Shown here piece after piece: positions 1,187-42,814 of a DNA stretch of 64,000 nt (position 1 is the stretch's first letter; each line of letters opens with the position of its first letter). Location of the stretch: positions 49,707 through 113,706 of the forward strand of contig CAZHTA010000001.1 of the NCBI GenBank assembly GCA_964535515.1, given 5' to 3'. Source of the stretch: an uncultured Gammaproteobacteria bacterium (lineage in GTDB: Bacteria; Patescibacteriota; Patescibacteriia; Magasanikbacterales; GWA2-37-8). The translations under genes and the position numbers were made by a program. Under the pieces are notes generated by a model. It was not told the DNA's origin. It made no database searches and saw only the letters and a program-made list of their open reading frames with translations.

Positions 1187-1346
1187 AACAAAATAAAAAC
1201 ACGAACGCCGCCCCGGGTGGGACGGCGGTGTTTCTGGAATTTAGAAAGACAGGACAATGTCCACGATGGACATCAGGATGGCAGTGCCGGCGGGGATATA
1301 GAAATTATCCCATTTACCGCCTAACACCTCAAAGACAGGGGCAGAG
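1187..1346. repeat. Direct repeat copy 1 (about 160 bp, near-identical to 2673-2832): a displaced terminator plus the 3' end of the membrane-protein gene
   Basis: caaaataaaaacacgaacgccgccccgggtgggacggcggtgtttctgg...gacaggggcagagc occurs twice with 2-3 mismatches. This copy diverges right after ggggcagagc, so it is an orphan 3' gene fragment plus terminator. Confidence 0.85.
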
Positions 1347-1408
1347 CCTCGAGGAATAGAATCATTTAAAAACACAACTCCCGTCATAAAGACGAGAGCA
1401 TGAAGAGA

Positions 1409-2672: not shown

Positions 2673-2832
2673 ACAAAATAAAAACACGAACGCCGCCCCG
2701 GGTGGGACGGCGGTGTTTCTGGAATTTAGAAAGACAGGACAATGTCCACGATGGACATCAGGATGGCAGTGCCGGCGGGGATATAGAAATTATCCCATTT
2801 ACCACCTAGCACCTCAAAGACAGGGGCAGAGC
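2673..2832. repeat. Direct repeat copy 2 (functional 3' end plus terminator of the membrane-protein gene)
   Basis: Near-identical to 1187-1346. Contains the stop of the 230-aa gene and a GC-rich hairpin followed by TTTTTATTTT on the minus strand. Confidence 0.85.
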
Positions 2833-3418
2833 ACACGCCTACCGTATACACGGTTACAACATGCCAGAACCCCAGTTCCACAGGAAAGAGCGGTGTAGCA
2901 AAGTGGTAGACCCCCACCCAGATTGCAGCGATGATTCCAACCCCCAATCCGAACAGCATGCCCCCGCGCGACTTACCGTTTTTAAAACGGGGCCCCATGG
3001 GAAAACGCTTGCCCAGCTTAGAGATCGGATCTACTACCCCCAACAGCAACCCAGCCAGCGCACAGATCCAGCGTGGACAGAAAACCCAAGCCACTGTACA
3101 CCCGAGAATCGTCTGAAGGGTAGTAGTCAAATCACCGCTCTTCTCGTTGTCCCTTGTGAAATGACTCACAAAGGCCGTGACCCGGTCAGCCCAGACAGCC
3201 GAGCTACGTTGCGCTGTCTTTCTAACCACCTCGACGGCAGAGAAGACAGACGCCACGATAATCAAAGCCGCCCAAACCACCTGGTTGCCATAGAACAACG
3301 GGTGGAGCACCAGCCAGGCCGAAAGCCCGACCAAGAAGTGGAGCAACCCGCGCTTCACTTCTGTCCCTGTCGACCACTTACCCCAATGGGTGAGGTGGTC
3401 TTGCCATTCCTTTTTCAA
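2726..3418 (-). CDS. polytopic membrane protein, CTP_transf_1-like (CdsA/dolichol-kinase/CarS superfamily) candidate
   Basis: 230 aa with multiple TM helices. C-terminal DPISKLGKRFPMGPRFKNGKSRGG resembles the S..KR..G.KD.G..GHGG motif of the cytidylyltransferase family. TTG start with GGGGGAGG just upstream. High GC. Confidence 0.5.
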   Translation of the reverse strand: MKKEWQDHLTHWGKWSTGTEVKRGLLHFLVGLSAWLVLHPLFYGNQVVWAALIIVASVFSAVEVVRKTAQRSSAVWADRVTAFVSHFTRDNEKSGDLTTTLQTILGCTVAWVFCPRWICALAGLLLGVVDPISKLGKRFPMGPRFKNGKSRGGMLFGLGVGIIAAIWVGVYHFATPLFPVELGFWHVVTVYTVGVCSAPVFEVLGGKWDNFYIPAGTAILMSIVDIVLSF

Positions 3419-3489
3419 TTCCTCCCCCTTTAAGATAAATGATCTGATTCAGTTTTATCACACTGCTCAAAAAAAATCAAGATTAAAAA

Positions 3490-3530
3490 AGACCCCGATT
3501 TTTTCGAGGTCTTTTACAAATATTGTATAT
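3490..3530 (-). terminator. rpoC terminator (bidirectional hairpin)
   Basis: aaaagaccccgattttttcgaggtctttt hairpin flanked by A and T runs, directly downstream of the rpoC stop. A near-identical copy lies at 42784-42814. Confidence 0.6.
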
Positions 3531-11402: not shown

Positions 11403-12068
11403 TTATTCCTTTTTTAAATAATTACTTACCATCAAAGCTTCTAACTCCTTCTTTTCTGTATCAGAAAAATCAACTGACGCTAATACAGCTGTCTTCATTT
11501 TCTCAAATTCAACCTCTTCGACTTGCACACGCATACCCTTGCTATCGCCAACAACTAATTTAAACAAATTACCTGCATTGTCTACACCCATTTTTTTCAA
11601 AATTTCTTTAAACTTTTCATTTACTGTTTCCACTATACTAATGGCATTTACTGATCCCAAATCAGAACTCCCTTCTAATTCACTCATTGGAAGATTAGTA
11701 TTTTGATTACCAAACAAAGACAAAACCACTGGCTCTCGCCAAAAAGCAACTACCCAATCCCGTACGTTGCGCTCAGGCACAGCTAATACCTCAACAAATC
11801 CGATCTGTCTTCTTGTTGCAGCACCACCATCTCTTTGTTGTTGTTGACGTTCTTCGGCAATCAAATCCGACAAGGTCGGCCCTTGGTCTAGCAACGAAGT
11901 ATTAAAACCAATTTTTTTTGGACGATTGTGTGGACCATCTGCTTCGTCGATCTCTCTAGCCGAAATACCGCGTGATAACTCACGCAGCATTGATTCACGA
12001 TACTGATCATCCCCAAGAGACCCTCTACCTAAATTAATTTCTGGAGCCCCGCCATTACCTTCTGACAT
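11403..12068 (-). CDS. hypothetical protein (221 aa)
   Basis: Long ORF with ordinary composition. No family recognised. Confidence 0.5.
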   Translation of the reverse strand: MSEGNGGAPEINLGRGSLGDDQYRESMLRELSRGISAREIDEADGPHNRPKKIGFNTSLLDQGPTLSDLIAEERQQQQRDGGAATRRQIGFVEVLAVPERNVRDWVVAFWREPVVLSLFGNQNTNLPMSELEGSSDLGSVNAISIVETVNEKFKEILKKMGVDNAGNLFKLVVGDSKGMRVQVEEVEFEKMKTAVLASVDFSDTEKKELEALMVSNYLKKE

Positions 12069-12861: not shown

Positions 12862-13160
12862 AAAAGTTGTTCTTATATCGAATAATTGAATTATATCCCA
12901 CCCTAAAACATAAATCAAACAAGATTGACAATTTGCCTAAAATAGGCTAATTTAGCTTGGGATAACTGGAAAAAGGAGGAAGAACTTGAGACACGTCTTG
13001 ATGTCCGTCAAGAAGCGCGGCATGAAGTTCGGACGTCGCCGGGTGTTCTAACCCCGACTTCTACGGCTACACCATCTCATATCCCCCATGCACGCCTGCT
13101 GCACTCCCATCCTGCAGGCATTCCATTTTTATAACTACTTTGGTAATTATAAAATAGAAT

Positions 13161-13194
13161 AAAAAACCACTGCTTTAAAACAGTGGTTTTTTAT
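13161..13194. terminator. bidirectional terminator T1 (degenerate copy of the guaB terminator at 16124-16156)
   Basis: aaaaaaccactgctttaaaacagtggtttttt. Lies at the left edge of high-GC island 2. Confidence 0.6.
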
Positions 13195-13367
13195 TCCCCT
13201 CATTCATCAAAATATTTTAATGAATAAGGGATGGGTGGTGTATGCGCCGGAAACACACACCCTTCCCCCCTAGGAAAGAACAGTAGCATTTCACACTGAA
13301 ACACGAACATTTCTCCGGCTATGTGAACGAGATTGAATGAGCGAAATTGAAGACCAGCGCGAACGCG

Positions 13368-15824
13368 CTAGGCCTGGTGTTCGTCGTTGGTGAGACGGGT
13401 CTTGACCTCGTCCCACACACCGGCGATGAACTCCACCGCGAGAACGGGGTTCCTGACGACGATATCGGCCACCATCGGATAGCGATTGCCGAGCATTTCG
13501 AGCAGGACCTCCACGACCTCGTGGTGCATCGCCAGCATCACGACCTTGCCGATGTCGACGAGACCGTCCGTGCGACCGGCAGGGATGAAGGACGGCGGCG
13601 GGATGAACACCATGGAGGGCGAAGCCACGCCATCTTCCATGCCATCCCGAGTTTCGGGCGGTTGGTCGAGAGCCGTATTGTCGGCGTCGTCATGTTGACC
13701 CACCAGCCCATCGGGGAACGGCTCAGCCGACTCGACGACCTCGTCGACACGACCTTCCGGCTCCCTCGACTCCTCCGACGAGATGTAACCGAACTGTGCC
13801 GACTGGAGTTGAGCGAACGCCTCGTCGTAGCCGCCTTCCCCGAAGAAACCGCTGTCCCGAATGACGTCGAGGGCGGCCTGGCCGCCATCGATCGTGGAGA
13901 AGCGCTCCCGAGGAATGGTCTCCCCGGTCACACTCTTCCACTCGTAGACGATCACGGTCGCACCACTTCCCTCGATCCGTTCGAGTTGCAGTCTACCGGC
14001 AGGAGTGGCCCTGATGGGCTCCGCCAGAACGGATTCCTGCTCGAGCACGGACTCGATGACCTCGGGGGTCGGATCGAGATCTTCGATCGGCGGCGCAACA
14101 CCCACGATGGGCACGACGTCGTTGGCCTCGGCGGGTGCCGCGGCCATCGCGTCGTCGTTGACCTCGATCGAAGCCGCGTTGGCGTCAACCAGGTCGACGA
14201 CCGCCTCGACGACAGACACCGGGGTTGGTGTAGCCGACGGAACGTAGGTGAACGGTTCATCGGTCCGGGGATGCTTGATGAACTTGATCTGACGATCAGC
14301 AACACCATCACCCACGAACTCCACGTAGCCCCAGTCACGAACCGTCCTGCAATATATCGAGGCCGAACAGGTCTCGTTCAGGTTCACCTTGGGACATTGC
14401 AGTCCCGAGATGCGCATGACCTCGGCGTAAGGCCCGGTGCGGCCATTCACGAGTTCGAACAGCTGAGCCAGACGCTCCTGCCGATCCATGCGAGCACCCG
14501 ACAACGCCGGCACCTTGGTCCAATCGAACTCGTCCACCACGATGGCGACGGGCTCGATGACCTCAGAGGTCGGCTCGAGCTCTTCAACCGGCGGCGCAGC
14601 ACTCACGATGGGCGCAGCGTCGTTGGTCTCGGCGAGGACGGGTTCTTCACGATCGGCACGCTTGCCCACGACCAGGCCGTCCAGATCTAGAACCATGTCG
14701 TTGGGATCACCCGCCCACACGAACTTGTCGGGATGATCCTTGTTGGGCTCGAGCGTTCCGTAACCCAAGTTCTCCATGAGGCGCAAAGCCTCACGGGCAC
14801 CACCCTTGTTGACGAAGCAGCCCACACCTTCCCAGTCGAGGCTGCCCCACGGCACATCCTTACCCTGGTAATGAGCGTAGAACTTCACGGCCACATCGAG
14901 GGGCGCGGAGAGCGACTCAGCGGGGCTATCGGCGTTGACCGCGACCGGCTCGGCCGTCGCCACGTTAGCGTCGGTCAAACCACCGCCGTTCGCCTCCGAT
15001 CCGACACCGAAGTCCTTGATGGCCATCGGATCGAGCAAGTAAATCTTGTGCTCGATCGTCAAGCTGTCCTGCACCTGCTTGTTCTGCAACTGGCAGAGGA
15101 CCATAACGGCCTCATCACCGGCCTTGATCAGCCGACTGTAGAGGCCCAGGATGTTGCTGGAGACAGCGTAGGTGGGGTGTTTGGTCGAACCCTTGTTCAC
15201 CACCCACTTGTGCCGTTCCATTTCCTTGAGCACTTCGACGACGAGGTTGCGCCTCTGCTGAACACCTTCCTGCTTGCCCAGGATCTCCTTGTACAGATCT
15301 CCCAGGCCGTGCTCGGCACCTTCGTCCAACACCTCCATAATGGCACCGAACAACTCGGCCTGTTTGGCCTTGCTCATGACTTGCCTCCCTTCTTGCGCTT
15401 TCATCCAGGCTTCTATCATCTCGCCTTTGTTCGAGACTCTCCTCTCTTGAGCAAGATCATCTTCGTCTTCTTCCGGGGCTTCACCTTTCGGCTCTACTCC
15501 GAGCGAAGCGAGGATCGTACGTGTGGTTTCACCTCCAGCCTTTTTTCGTTTTGCTTTCTCTGCTTGCCACTCACGCTCCTCGAAGACACCAGACGTGCCT
15601 TCTTCGGAGAACCCTTCACGATTCTTCCTTCCCTGCACGCAACGCCAACAACAGCTACGCTTTTTCTCCATCGCGTTTGCATCGAGGTAATCGTCGAGAC
15701 ATTGCTGCAACGACAACACCTTCCGGCGAGACTTGCACGGGAACGTGGTAGCCGCAAGTTGCGCCTCCAGCTCTGGACACCCTTCTCGATACGAAGGGGG
15801 AGCGAACGGATCACTCTTGTCCAT
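13368..15824 (-). CDS. large acidic hypothetical protein with internal tandem repeats (818 aa from the SD-preceded ATG), high-GC island 2
   Basis: About 62% GC. GGAGGAGGTG directly before ATG at 15824. Internal repeat NDAAPIVSAAPPVEELEPTSEVIEPV versus NDVVPIVGVAPPIEDLDPTPEVIESV. The plus-strand ORFs over the same span have R/G/H-biased junk composition. Confidence 0.6.
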   Translation of the reverse strand: MDKSDPFAPPSYREGCPELEAQLAATTFPCKSRRKVLSLQQCLDDYLDANAMEKKRSCCWRCVQGRKNREGFSEEGTSGVFEEREWQAEKAKRKKAGGETTRTILASLGVEPKGEAPEEDEDDLAQERRVSNKGEMIEAWMKAQEGRQVMSKAKQAELFGAIMEVLDEGAEHGLGDLYKEILGKQEGVQQRRNLVVEVLKEMERHKWVVNKGSTKHPTYAVSSNILGLYSRLIKAGDEAVMVLCQLQNKQVQDSLTIEHKIYLLDPMAIKDFGVGSEANGGGLTDANVATAEPVAVNADSPAESLSAPLDVAVKFYAHYQGKDVPWGSLDWEGVGCFVNKGGAREALRLMENLGYGTLEPNKDHPDKFVWAGDPNDMVLDLDGLVVGKRADREEPVLAETNDAAPIVSAAPPVEELEPTSEVIEPVAIVVDEFDWTKVPALSGARMDRQERLAQLFELVNGRTGPYAEVMRISGLQCPKVNLNETCSASIYCRTVRDWGYVEFVGDGVADRQIKFIKHPRTDEPFTYVPSATPTPVSVVEAVVDLVDANAASIEVNDDAMAAAPAEANDVVPIVGVAPPIEDLDPTPEVIESVLEQESVLAEPIRATPAGRLQLERIEGSGATVIVYEWKSVTGETIPRERFSTIDGGQAALDVIRDSGFFGEGGYDEAFAQLQSAQFGYISSEESREPEGRVDEVVESAEPFPDGLVGQHDDADNTALDQPPETRDGMEDGVASPSMVFIPPPSFIPAGRTDGLVDIGKVVMLAMHHEVVEVLLEMLGNRYPMVADIVVRNPVLAVEFIAGVWDEVKTRLTNDEHQA

Positions 15825-16123
15825 CACCTCCTCCTTCTGGTTTGGGTTTCTTTCGCATACGCCTGTACGCAAACTGCGGACACCACTTACGGGGCGACCC
15901 TTTGTTTCTCACCTCCAACATCATCCCTCCTCCCGGTGTGAAAGTTGAGTGCTAGCCTAAAACGATCGAAACCGTCTATGTTACCTTTTATATATGCAAA
16001 ACTGCCTAAGCAGTTTGTTAGGTTGGAAAAGAACTAATCGTTTCTCCTCCTTTCAGCTTTGTATTCTACATATTTAATACTAAAAGTCAACCATTCATAC
16101 TAAAACTACGCACTTCTAAAACA

Positions 16124-16156
16124 CAAAAAAACACCGCTTTAAACGGTGGTTTTTTG
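16124..16156. terminator. guaB terminator T2
   Basis: aaaaacaccgctttaaacggtggtttttt immediately downstream of the guaB stop (minus strand). Confidence 0.65.
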
Positions 16157-16170
16157 TTGCTAATTTTTTA

Positions 16171-35916: not shown

Positions 35917-35969
35917 ATTAAAAACAAAGGAAATAAAAAACCACCATACTTAAAACGGTGGTTTTTTAT
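35917..35969. terminator. bidirectional terminator T3: 21-bp perfect inverted repeat arms
   Basis: caaaggaaataaaaaaccacc-atacttaaaac-ggtggttttttatttcctttg. Sits at the left edge of high-GC island 4. Confidence 0.65.
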
Positions 35970-36059
35970 TTCCTTTGTCGACAAAGTGAAGTGCCGGAGA
36001 GAATGCCGGCTCACTATCACCTCTATTGAATAGCCGAGGGACAGGCCAAGAAAGAACTA

Positions 36060-37373
36060 CTACTCCTTTTCCAAAATTTGAAACCAGGGAAGGATCGAGC
36101 GGTCCGTACGGTGATAAGGACCACGTGCCGGAAGGGTAAAGGAGGGGTTGTTGGCAAGCAACCGATACGTCTCCGGATCAACACGCCGCACTGCCGTGCC
36201 TTCGTCATACTCCTTCTTCACTACCGTACCAGCCGAATACTCATTAAGCAGTATTACTGGCAAAGCAGAAATCGGATGATGCCTGTGCACTTGCGGCATG
36301 ATTTCTTCGAACAGAAGCTGGGAGTGATTAGCCAACAACTCCGACAACACACGCAAGACTTCACGCGTGATGATCGGGCCCATGGCCAAGCAATGCTTCC
36401 CGACGAATTCGGTGACACGCGACTGAAGAACTCCCGAGCTAAACGATCCGATCGCCTTGAGCAAGTTCCAGAGCCAGGCGGTAGTATGGCGATGGCTACC
36501 GTCCGTATTGCACCCATACTCATTCACCACGATAGGAGCAAACCCGTTCTTGTACAAGCTCTGGAGCTCTTGGATAATACGCGCCGGCACCACCAGCTCA
36601 GTTGCCTTGATGGAAGCGAGCCCGACTTCTCCAACCTCAATCCACATGCCGCGATAAACACCCCGACTATGAATATTGAGATTGTAAGAATACTGTCGAT
36701 AACTCGCTGCTGCCTCCAACTCAAAAGCTACGCTCAACCCGCAATTCTCTTTACCAACAACTGACATAGTGTTCTCTGCCCACAAAAGCGTATCGCGATT
36801 GTAGACCATCCTACCGTGTTGGTCCCAAGCCTGACGCACCAACGACAGAACTTTGGCTACGCCATCATCGTGCGCCTGGTGCAGATTGCGCCGCAGCTCT
36901 TCAACATACGCCTGCCAACCAACATCACTCCGCGGCAGCGTTTGAACGACGACGGGACTCAAGACAAAGATGTCCGGCTCTGCCACACCCGACCAATCCC
37001 ACGACGGCAGCTTACGCTCTGCCACGGTCGTTACTGGCTGATGATTCCCAACAACCGGAATCCCCGCGAACTTCGAAAGCTCCTGGAAGCGACTCCATTC
37101 CAAAGCGCCGGCATTAATCTGACAACTACCGCCCGGACCAGGCAAGGTATGCCCGGGAAAGCGCGTCAGACACTGTACCCCCGGCATCACGAGCGCCGTC
37201 CCAACTCGGGAAGAAATGAACTCGCACTCACACCCACTAATCGGATCCGCGAACAGATCATTCTCCTGCTTGATCTGTTTCACGCCCTTCTGCTGTTGAT
37301 ACTGTCCCACGTCTGGCTCCCGAAAGCGACACGACGACTTGAATCCGGGCAAGAGCAACGCACCCTCTCGCAT
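36060..37373 (-). CDS. hypothetical protein (437 aa from the SD-preceded ATG), high-GC island 4
   Basis: GCAGGAGGAGGGAAC then ATG at 37373. About 60% GC. The plus-strand ORFs over it are compositional junk. No family recognised. Confidence 0.6.
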   Translation of the reverse strand: MREGALLLPGFKSSCRFREPDVGQYQQQKGVKQIKQENDLFADPISGCECEFISSRVGTALVMPGVQCLTRFPGHTLPGPGGSCQINAGALEWSRFQELSKFAGIPVVGNHQPVTTVAERKLPSWDWSGVAEPDIFVLSPVVVQTLPRSDVGWQAYVEELRRNLHQAHDDGVAKVLSLVRQAWDQHGRMVYNRDTLLWAENTMSVVGKENCGLSVAFELEAAASYRQYSYNLNIHSRGVYRGMWIEVGEVGLASIKATELVVPARIIQELQSLYKNGFAPIVVNEYGCNTDGSHRHTTAWLWNLLKAIGSFSSGVLQSRVTEFVGKHCLAMGPIITREVLRVLSELLANHSQLLFEEIMPQVHRHHPISALPVILLNEYSAGTVVKKEYDEGTAVRRVDPETYRLLANNPSFTLPARGPYHRTDRSILPWFQILEKE

Positions 37374-42768: not shown

Positions 42769-42783
42769 CCCGGATTTTTTAAA

Positions 42784-42814
42784 AGACCTCGATTTTATTC
42801 GAGGTCTTTTGTTT
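42784..42814. terminator. terminator hairpin, near-identical copy of the rpoC terminator
   Basis: aaaagacctcgattttattcgaggtctttt versus aaaagaccccgattttttcgaggtctttt at 3497-3527. Overlaps the last codons of the glycosyltransferase gene. Confidence 0.55.

What the first reader, a model, noticed from the sequence alone, without database searches (positions are those of the whole stretch)
13161..16156. Island 2: 818-aa acidic repeat protein inserted between duplicated terminator copies
A single high-GC gene (13368-15824, minus strand) starts behind GGAGGAGG and has a 130-nt GC-rich leader. It has an internal tandem duplication (NDAAPIVSAAPPVEELEPTSEVIEPV vs NDVVPIVGVAPPIEDLDPTPEVIESV) and a Cys cluster CCWRC near the N-terminus. 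It is bracketed by two about 80%-similar terminators, T1 at 13161-13194 and the guaB terminator T2 at 16124-16156. That is consistent with insertion into the guaB terminator with target duplication. I recognise no family.
Basis: partly seen in the sequence, partly recalled or inferred. Interest (0 to 1): 0.65.

Follow-up and report, generated by a model that had tools for sequence, protein, structure and literature searches.

The report
GC-rich orphan gene cassette after guaB
A real, fast-evolving 818-residue acidic protein gene with its own promoter and terminator sits in a 3.3-kb block between guaB and pduO in an AT-rich candidate-phyla-radiation (CPR) genome; it belongs to a small unannotated protein family, and the two similar terminators are not good evidence of a target-site duplication.

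Summary
Window 13368-15824 (-) is an 818-aa acidic ORF (net charge -62). Its GC3 is 0.74, against 0.30-0.36 in neighbouring genes. It has a strong ribosome-binding site (RBS), an 87-nt internal repeat (85% identical, 501 nt apart), a Cys cluster, and similar terminators on either side.

- **Insertion:** the closest syntenic relative (L001, GuaB 83%) has guaB and pduO 21 nt apart with no terminator, so the whole 3.3 kb is extra.
- **Not strain-specific:** a closer relative (L089, GuaB 90%) carries a 55%-identical homolog at the same locus, behind the same promoter.
- **Terminators:** T1 resembles a third terminator 22 kb away more than it resembles T2, and an unrelated terminator pair is equally similar.
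- **Homologs exist:** residues 27-75 form a domain with four invariant Cys, shared with about 100 stand-alone ~70-aa proteins; those whose DNA was read lie on GC-rich contigs. Long forms occur at other loci in AT-rich genomes, and two of them are also GC-elevated by GC3.

Function is unknown. My best guess is a cytoplasmic metal-binding regulator or scaffold with winged-helix-like modules. No link to phage, plasmid, defence systems or diversity-generating retroelements (DGRs) was found.

The parts
12862..16170 (-). Whole extra block between the guaB stop and the pduO start (3309 nt)
   Evidence: In L001 the same two genes are 21 nt apart. The pduO start was set by alignment with L001 PduO.
16124..16157 (-). 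T2: bidirectional intrinsic terminator 14 nt after guaB
   Evidence: Terminator scan. A similar hairpin follows guaB in L089. It is absent in L001.
16063..16090 (-). Sigma-70-type promoter TTGACT-16-TAGAAT for the island gene
   Evidence: Matches 10 of 12 consensus positions. Both hexamers are identical in L089.
15825..16056 (-). About 230-nt leader (transcription start inferred). The distal AT-rich part is conserved with L089. It includes the SD-like (Shine-Dalgarno-like, i.e. RBS-like) GAAAGGAGGAG at 16044-16054 and a hairpin at 15999-16016. The proximal 130 nt are GC-rich.
   Evidence: Identity to L089 is 74% distally and 46% proximally. The last 40 nt before the start resemble the L085 homolog's leader (z = 5.5). 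The fold is not exceptional (z = -0.8).
13368..15824 (-). 818-aa acidic protein gene
   Evidence: - Against L089: dN 0.35, dS 1.7; codon-position identity 0.71/0.73/0.47.
- Homologs P0003 and P0004.
15600..15746 (-). N-terminal domain with four invariant Cys (residues 27-75)
   Evidence: - 49- and 51-sequence alignments with invariant Cys.
- AF2 (AlphaFold2) core pLDDT 74-84.
14548..14634 (-). Repeat motif copy 1 (AETNDAAPIVSAAPPVEELEPTSEVIEPV)
14047..14133 (-). Repeat motif copy 2 (AEANDVVPIVGVAPPIEDLDPTPEVIESV)
13156..13197 (-). T1: palindromic bidirectional terminator of the island gene
   Evidence: It is 95% identical over 21 nt to T3 at 35950-35970.
12986..13125 (.). 58%-GC patch beyond T1. 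It carries a 21-aa ORF (12986-13051, +) behind AAAGGAGGAAG. Its status is unknown.
12890..12918 (-). Promoter-like site TTGATT-17-TATAAT in front of pduO, inside the extra block

Best explanation
A 3.3-kb accessory cassette interrupts what is a tight guaB-pduO pair in a sister genome.

**Cassette layout**
- It carries one real protein-coding gene with its own conserved promoter, a long leader, a strong RBS and its own terminator.
- The block also supplies a terminator for guaB and a new promoter for pduO.

**Age and evolution**
- It was already present in the common ancestor of this genome and of metagenome contig L089.
- Its protein has since evolved about four times faster than GuaB at non-synonymous sites.

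**Protein**
- It is a long-form member of an unannotated family.
- Its parts, in order, are:
  - an N-terminal domain with four invariant Cys, probably metal-binding, which also exists as ~70-aa stand-alone proteins;
  - acidic Pro-rich spacers;
  - several modules that look winged-helix-like;
  - a C-terminal helical domain.
- Inferred function (low confidence): a cytoplasmic nucleic-acid- or protein-binding regulator or scaffold.

**Composition and terminators**
- High GC recurs in several long-form members found in AT-rich genomes. That points to horizontal origin from a GC-richer source, to gene-specific maintenance of GC, or to both.
- T1 and T2 belong to a small terminator family in this genome. 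They are not a target-site duplication.
For: **Extra block**
- L001 has guaB, 21 nt, then pduO.

**Same locus in L089**
- The promoter is identical and the leader start is conserved.
- The protein is 55% identical over residues 2-169, while GuaB is 90% identical.
- This independent assembly rules out a chimeric junction at the guaB side.

**Real gene**
- dN/dS is about 0.2, and third codon positions are the least conserved.
- Identity at 4-fold sites is 0.53 in the island (36 sites) and 0.37 in guaB. This fits co-inheritance plus fast protein evolution rather than an older allele.

**Family**
- HMMER against 1.84 billion representatives gave 62 hits.
- P0004 aligns over residues 94-554 (E = 4e-15), and P0003 over 24-124 and 424-474.
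- The Cys are invariant in both domain alignments.
- P0027 shows the same domain order.

**GC pattern in long-form homologs**
- Clearly raised GC3: P0004's gene 0.63 against 0.26-0.28 in its host.
- Mildly raised: P0027's gene 0.40 against 0.27-0.33.
- Not raised: P0003's gene 0.37, equal to its host.

**Source of the stand-alone form**
- The four contigs read are 59-78% GC (L087, L088, L090, L093).
- L090 (69% GC) is 71% identical to residues 27-75, as close as L089 is.

**Terminators**
-.
Against: - **Direction of change.** Only one genome shows the empty site, so a deletion in L001 cannot be excluded.
- **3' junction.** It is seen in this assembly only, because L089 ends inside the gene.
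- **No donor identified.**
- **Saturation.** dS values are near saturation, so arguments about age and amelioration are rough.
- **Taxonomy.** The CPR identity of L081, L085 and L091 was not verified here.
Confidence: 0.6

Rival explanations
1. One reading: a recent insertion into the guaB terminator that duplicated the target, leaving T1 and T2 as flanking copies.
For: - T1 and T2 match at 27 of 33 positions.
- Their score of 21 is above the bulk of the 210 terminator pairs, which score 15 or less.
- T2 lies directly after guaB.
Against: - L001's empty site has no terminator.
- T1-T3 scores 23, and the unrelated pair at 3485 and 42779 scores 21.
- T1 is about 300 nt from pduO and is flanked by GC-rich DNA on both sides.
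- There is no transposase or integrase.
- The cassette predates the split from L089.
Confidence: 0.1
2. The gene is ancestral at this locus and was deleted in L001. Its high GC is maintained by a gene-specific force, such as biased gene conversion at a recombination-prone accessory locus or selection, rather than reflecting foreign origin.
For: - The GC-rich membrane-protein gene after rpoC keeps GC3 at 0.64-0.66 in both the window and L001. Its 4-fold sites are fully saturated: identity 0.21 against 0.28 expected.
- The island's N-terminal part is GC-elevated in both the window and L089, although flank synonymous sites are near saturation.
Against: - A clean 21-nt guaB-pduO junction in L001 is more easily explained as the original state.
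- P0003's gene has host-like GC3, so high GC is not obligatory for the family.
- The long-form homologs sit at unrelated loci.
Confidence: 0.2
3. Assembly chimera or contamination: GC-rich DNA from another organism was mis-joined into a CPR contig.
For: - Sharp GC steps.
- The protein search found only the query itself.
Against: - An independent metagenome assembly (L089) has the same guaB-promoter-gene junction.
- The AT-rich promoter, leader and terminators lie inside the block.
- Homologs P0004 and P0027 also lie as GC-elevated genes inside AT-rich contigs assembled elsewhere.
Confidence: 0.02
4. Part of a mobile element, prophage, defence system or diversity-generating retroelement.
For: Atypical composition, an orphan protein and an internal repeat.
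Against: - No hit in phage or plasmid records or in IMG/VR.
- No PHROG or PADLOC hit.
- There is no reverse transcriptase, and the repeat mismatches are not adenine-specific (read directly from the sequences).
- There is no adjacent tRNA or integrase.
Confidence: 0.05

Closest known systems
Horizontally acquired genomic islets in Patescibacteria/CPR genomes (PMC12455944)
   Same: - Compositionally atypical accessory DNA in a streamlined genome.
- Absent from a relative with conserved flanks.
- That paper reports hundreds of islands and transferred genes, making up to 13% of genome length.
   Different: - A single gene with no mobility genes and no identified donor.
- Present at the same locus in two genomes whose synonymous sites are near saturation, yet still GC-rich.
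Small 4-Cys metal-binding regulators (WhiB-like proteins, zinc ribbons or treble-clef fingers, ZAS anti-sigma domains)
   Same: - Four invariant Cys, including a CxxC, in a domain of about 50 residues.
- The domain also exists as a stand-alone small protein.
   Different: - The Cys spacing is C-x11-C-x16-C-x2-C, and there is no HxxxCxxC motif.
- No Pfam or PDB profile hit.
- The resemblance is a lead from memory, not a membership.
Winged-helix (MarR/ArsR-type) DNA-binding domains
   Same: Repeated ~90-aa modules follow a helix...G(W/Y)(V/I)...hairpin pattern. Top weak matches are to MarR and CadC.
5' SD-like mRNA stabilisers (the STAB-SD element of Bacillus cryIIIA; recalled from memory)
   Same: GAAAGGAGGAG sits at the very start of a long leader, far from the start codon. 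SD-like runs lie at a similar place in the leaders of L089, L085 and L081.
   Different: Not tested. The transcription start is only predicted.

Membership tests
Insertion with target-site duplication | The empty site in a relative holds one copy of the duplicated target | tested here: not met
   The L001 guaB-pduO spacer is 21 nt and has no terminator.
Insertion with target-site duplication | The repeats abut both ends of the insert and are more alike than unrelated sites | tested here: not met
   T1 is about 300 nt from pduO. T1-T3 scores 23, above T1-T2 at 21, and an unrelated pair also scores 21.
Insertion with target-site duplication | A transposase, integrase or other mobility gene | tested here: not met
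   One ORF with no Pfam or PHROG hit.
Horizontally acquired genomic islet | Atypical composition compared with host genes | tested here: met
   GC3 is 0.735 against 0.30-0.36.
Horizontally acquired genomic islet | Absent from a relative that has conserved flanks | tested here: met
   L001. Only one such genome was available.
Horizontally acquired genomic islet | An identifiable donor lineage | tested here: inconclusive
   Only the 49-aa N-terminal domain has close relatives in GC-rich bacteria (71% identity to L090). Full-length relatives are all in AT-rich genomes.
Diversity-generating retroelement target | A template/variable repeat pair with adenine-specific mismatches, plus a reverse transcriptase | tested here: not met
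   The mismatches between the two 87-nt copies are of all types (sequences). No reverse-transcriptase domain was found.
Four-Cys metal-binding domain | Four invariant Cys ligands across homologs | tested here: met
   C30, C42, C59 and C62 are invariant in 49 sequences. In the 51-sequence set, three are invariant and C30 is nearly so.
Four-Cys metal-binding domain | Metal actually bound; fold matches a known zinc-finger class | tested here: inconclusive
   The AF2 core has pLDDT 74-84 (hairpin, helix, CxxC loop, helix). There is no structural match. Metal binding cannot be tested here.
Winged-helix DNA-binding proteins | A significant profile or structure match to a winged-helix family | tested here: not met
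   No Pfam hit. The best PDB profile hit is CadC at E = 1.8.
Phage, plasmid or defence gene | Homologs in phage or plasmid records, or in defence-system models | tested here: not met

The most novel reading that the evidence does not exclude
The protein may be a host-directed mimic. On this reading, an episymbiotic CPR bacterium fused a small 4-Cys regulator domain, taken from a co-occurring GC-rich bacterium, onto a fast-evolving multi-module acidic scaffold. The candidate source is the organism of L090, which is 71% identical in that domain and comes from a neighbouring metagenome id to L089.

A linked possibility is that the GC-rich state of such accessory genes is actively maintained in AT-rich CPR genomes, either by repeated exchange with GC-rich partners or by biased gene conversion. 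In that case these islets would mark the interface between symbiont and host.
Probability: 0.1. Interest if true: 0.8.

Novelty: new variant of a known kind. Interest (0 to 1): 0.4.

Why it matters
- **Protein family.** The finding defines an unannotated family. The core is a four-Cys domain present in about 100 small proteins. Long forms, fused to acidic multi-module tails, occur in AT-rich small-genome bacteria.
- **Composition over time.** In this lineage, GC-rich and fast-evolving single-gene islets stay at fixed loci across divergences at which synonymous sites are saturated. That is not what simple amelioration of foreign DNA predicts.
- **Possible use.** If the link to GC-rich bacteria is real, such genes could help identify the hosts or partners of uncultured CPR bacteria.
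- **Limit.** As it stands this is a well-delimited hypothetical gene, not a new mechanism.

Tried and rejected
- **Word-indexed protein searches.** The full protein and the 3-sequence alignment returned only the query itself. Low-complexity words probably swamped the candidate list.
- **Exact-sequence look-ups.** Neither the island protein nor GuaB is in the contig index, so the source record could not be named.
- **Structure prediction and fold search.**
  - The single-sequence AF2 model of the full protein was useless (pLDDT 37.7).
  - The afdb50 library was unavailable.
- **PDB profile searches.** The domain and the two module alignments gave nothing significant.
- **RNA searches.** Rfam at relaxed threshold gave only sub-threshold terminator-like sRNA matches at T1. 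The leader fold is unexceptional.
- **Mobile-element and defence searches.** Phage, plasmid, IMG/VR and PADLOC searches were all negative.
- **DGR idea.** Rejected from the mismatch pattern in the repeat.
- **Promoter or leader copies.** No copy elsewhere in the window; blastn found only T3.
- **Relating L081 to the window.** The attempt failed because the window ORF chosen for comparison was a different kind of protein.
Full report
**1. Observation**

The window is about 40% GC with several GC-rich patches. Across 13240-15990, GC is 0.56-0.67 in 200-nt windows.

The minus strand holds an ORF ending at 13368. The ORF list gives a TTG start at 15872 (834 aa). The ATG at 15824 follows AAGGAGGAGGTG, and it is where protein-level similarity to a relative begins, so the 818-aa call is right.

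- GC3 is 0.735 overall and 0.775 for residues 211-818.
- Five neighbouring genes have GC3 of 0.30-0.36, while GC2 is similar (0.41). Amino-acid content alone therefore does not explain the anomaly.
- The protein has net charge -62.
- The 87-nt repeat is real: 85% identity, 501 nt apart. Only the ~29-aa Pro/Glu-rich motif is repeated; the modules between the copies are not significantly alike.
- T1 and T2 are both terminator-like and match at 27 of 33 positions.

**2. Is it an insertion?**

A scan for GuaB relatives in species-representative genomes found three close ones. L001 (GuaB 83%) keeps the order nrdJ-guaB-pduO-tRNA-Leu-rpoB-rpoC. Its guaB and pduO are 21 nt apart, with no terminator and no GC rise. 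So 12862-16170 (3309 nt) is extra here. L002 and L003 have a different gene after guaB and say nothing either way.

A metagenome scan found L089, which has nrdJ-guaB (GuaB 90%). After guaB it has:
- a similar terminator;
- an identical -35 and -10;
- a conserved AT-rich leader start;
- a diverged GC-rich leader;
- a homolog 55% identical over residues 2-169, where the contig ends.

This independent assembly excludes a chimera at the guaB side. It also shows that the cassette predates the split of the two genomes.

Between the two copies:
- dN is 0.35 and dS about 1.7, against 0.08 and 1.4 for guaB.
- Identity at 4-fold sites is 0.53 in the island (n = 36) and 0.37 in guaB.

This looks like co-inheritance with roughly fourfold faster protein evolution under purifying selection (dN/dS about 0.2). 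The gene is real.

**3. Terminators**

My own scan of the window listed 52 terminator-like sites. Among 21 convincing ones, the scores were:

| Pair | Score |
|---|---|
| T1-T3 | 23 |
| T1-T2 | 21 |
| T2-T3 | 21 |
| 3485-42779 (unrelated) | 21 |
| all other pairs | 15 or less |

T3 (35935-35968) follows another GC-rich ORF 22 kb away. T1 and T3 are 95% identical over 21 nt.

So T1 and T2 are more alike than most pairs, but they belong to a three-member family, and another such family exists. Three further points count against a target duplication:
- The empty site in L001 has no terminator.
- T1 is about 300 nt from pduO.
- There is a 58%-GC patch beyond T1.

For contrast, island 1 in this same window is bracketed by a 161-nt direct repeat at 99% identity.

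**4. The protein**

There is no Pfam, PHROG, NCBIfam or PADLOC hit.

A full HMMER pass over 1.84 billion representatives gave 62 hits. Most are proteins of 60-110 aa that match residues 25-75. In alignments of 49 and 51 sequences, the Cys at positions 30, 42, 59 and 62 are invariant or nearly so, within the consensus F-Y-C-x2-R-R-x7-C-L-D-D-Y-x2-A-N-A-x5-R-S-x-C-x-R-C-x-Q-G-x2-N-R.

The stand-alone forms whose DNA was read come from GC-rich contigs (59-78% GC: L087, L088, L090, L093). Some carry the source labels Myxococcales or Deltaproteobacteria. They lie in ordinary chromosomal contexts.

Long relatives are:

| Protein | Length | Match or note |
|---|---|---|
| P0004 | 937 aa | aligns to residues 94-554, E = 4e-15; lacks the Cys domain |
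| P0003 | 807 aa | matches residues 24-124 and 424-474 |
| P0027 | 460 aa as re-read | same order of parts |

They share modules with a helix...G(W/Y)(V/I)...hairpin pattern that looks winged-helix-like, separated by acidic Pro-rich spacers, plus a C-terminal helical domain. Profile searches of these modules against the PDB gave nothing significant; the best is CadC at E = 1.8. The winged-helix reading is therefore inference.

There is no signal peptide or hydrophobic span in the sequence (read by eye), so I take the protein to be cytoplasmic.

**5. Context and composition across the family**

The long forms sit at unrelated loci, always as a single gene:
- between secF and a DUF8128/TrwB-like operon (L081);
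- between an S1 gene and ftsH (L085);
- elsewhere in L091.

| Gene | GC3 of gene | GC3 of host genes |
|---|---|---|
| P0004 | 0.63 | 0.26-0.28 |
| P0027 | 0.40 | 0.27-0.33 |
| P0003 | 0.37 | 0.32-0.37 (the same) |

The 40 nt before the start codon are similar in the window and L085 (z = 5.5, 0 of 500 shuffles). Some 5' untranslated sequence has therefore travelled with the gene.

In the 49-aa core, the window is 71% identical both to L089 and to the stand-alone protein of L090, a 69%-GC contig from a neighbouring metagenome id. P0003's best match is also L090. The domain is too short for a firm tree, but the long-form N-termini do not form a group of their own.

**6. A wider pattern**

The membrane-protein gene after rpoC is GC-rich in both the window and L001 (GC3 0.66 and 0.64). 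Its protein is only 47% identical, against 94% for RpoC. Its 4-fold sites are fully saturated: identity 0.21, against 0.28 expected by chance.

So in this lineage, GC-rich and fast-evolving accessory genes persist at fixed loci. Either their composition is maintained, or the loci are repeatedly refilled from GC-rich sources. The same may hold for the guaB cassette, but only its mildly elevated N-terminal part can be compared (GC3 0.55-0.62).

**7. Negative results**

- No phage, plasmid or IMG/VR relatives.
- No tRNA next to the block.
- No Rfam family beyond sub-threshold terminator look-alikes.
- The leader fold is unexceptional.
- The repeat mismatches are not adenine-specific, so this is not a DGR.

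**8. Verdict**

The gene is real and well delimited. The protein family is unannotated. The composition pattern is unusual but not unprecedented; HGT islands are common in Patescibacteria (PMC12455944).

The target-duplication model is not supported. Function remains a guess. Interest is moderate.

Noticed in passing
window 1187-1347 and 2672-2832; also 1404-1531 and 1894-2021: A 161-nt direct repeat at 99% identity, 1485 nt apart, brackets a very GC-rich 184-aa ORF (1884-2438, GC3 0.85). A 128-nt repeat at 87% identity duplicates the 3' end of that ORF. This looks like a genuine recent duplication or insertion in island 1.
   Followed up: partly
window 2726-3418 (-); L001 20354-21064: The 230-aa membrane-protein gene after rpoC is GC-rich in both genomes (GC3 0.66 and 0.64). 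Protein identity is only 47%, and 4-fold sites are saturated. GC-richness persists across the divergence.
   Followed up: partly
window 36060-37373 (-) and 35935-35968: This is another GC-rich single gene (437 aa, GC3 about 0.60, no Pfam or PADLOC hit). It sits behind AGGAGGAGG and is followed by terminator T3, which is 95% identical to T1 over 21 nt.
   Followed up: partly
window 3485-3518 and 42779-42812: A second pair of near-identical terminators (AAAAGACCTCGA...) lies 39 kb apart, so this genome has terminator families.
   Followed up: no
window 11403-12068 (-): A 221-aa ORF with host-like GC and no Pfam or PADLOC hit lies between pduO and tRNA-Leu. No ORF of 80 aa or more occupies the corresponding stretch in L001.
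   Followed up: no
window 12986-13125: A 58%-GC patch lies between T1 and the pduO promoter. It carries a 21-aa basic ORF (MRHVLMSVKKRGMKFGRRRVF, + strand) behind AAAGGAGGAAG. The minus-strand RNA fold has z = -2.3.
   Followed up: partly
window 16044-16054 and 15999-16016: An SD-like GAAAGGAGGAG lies right after the -10 box, and a small hairpin AAACTGC-TTAG-GCAGTTT lies in the leader. Both are conserved in L089, and similar elements occur in the L085 leader. They may act as an mRNA stabiliser or an operator.
   Followed up: partly
L001 5374-9909: NrdJ of the relative is 1511 aa against 1147 aa here. The extra segment looks like an intein with a homing-endonuclease-like part.
   Followed up: no
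L001 (CAZHYJ010000001.1): The record is titled 'uncultured Gammaproteobacteria'. Its gene order and sequences match this CPR-like window (GuaB 83%, RpoC 94%), so the label is probably wrong.
   Followed up: no
L081 12578-18556: Downstream of the homolog P0003 lies a tight run of genes: a 130-aa protein, DUF8128, a TrwB/TraG-like ATPase and a TPR protein. This may be a secretion or DNA-transfer context. It is not seen next to the other homologs.
   Followed up: no
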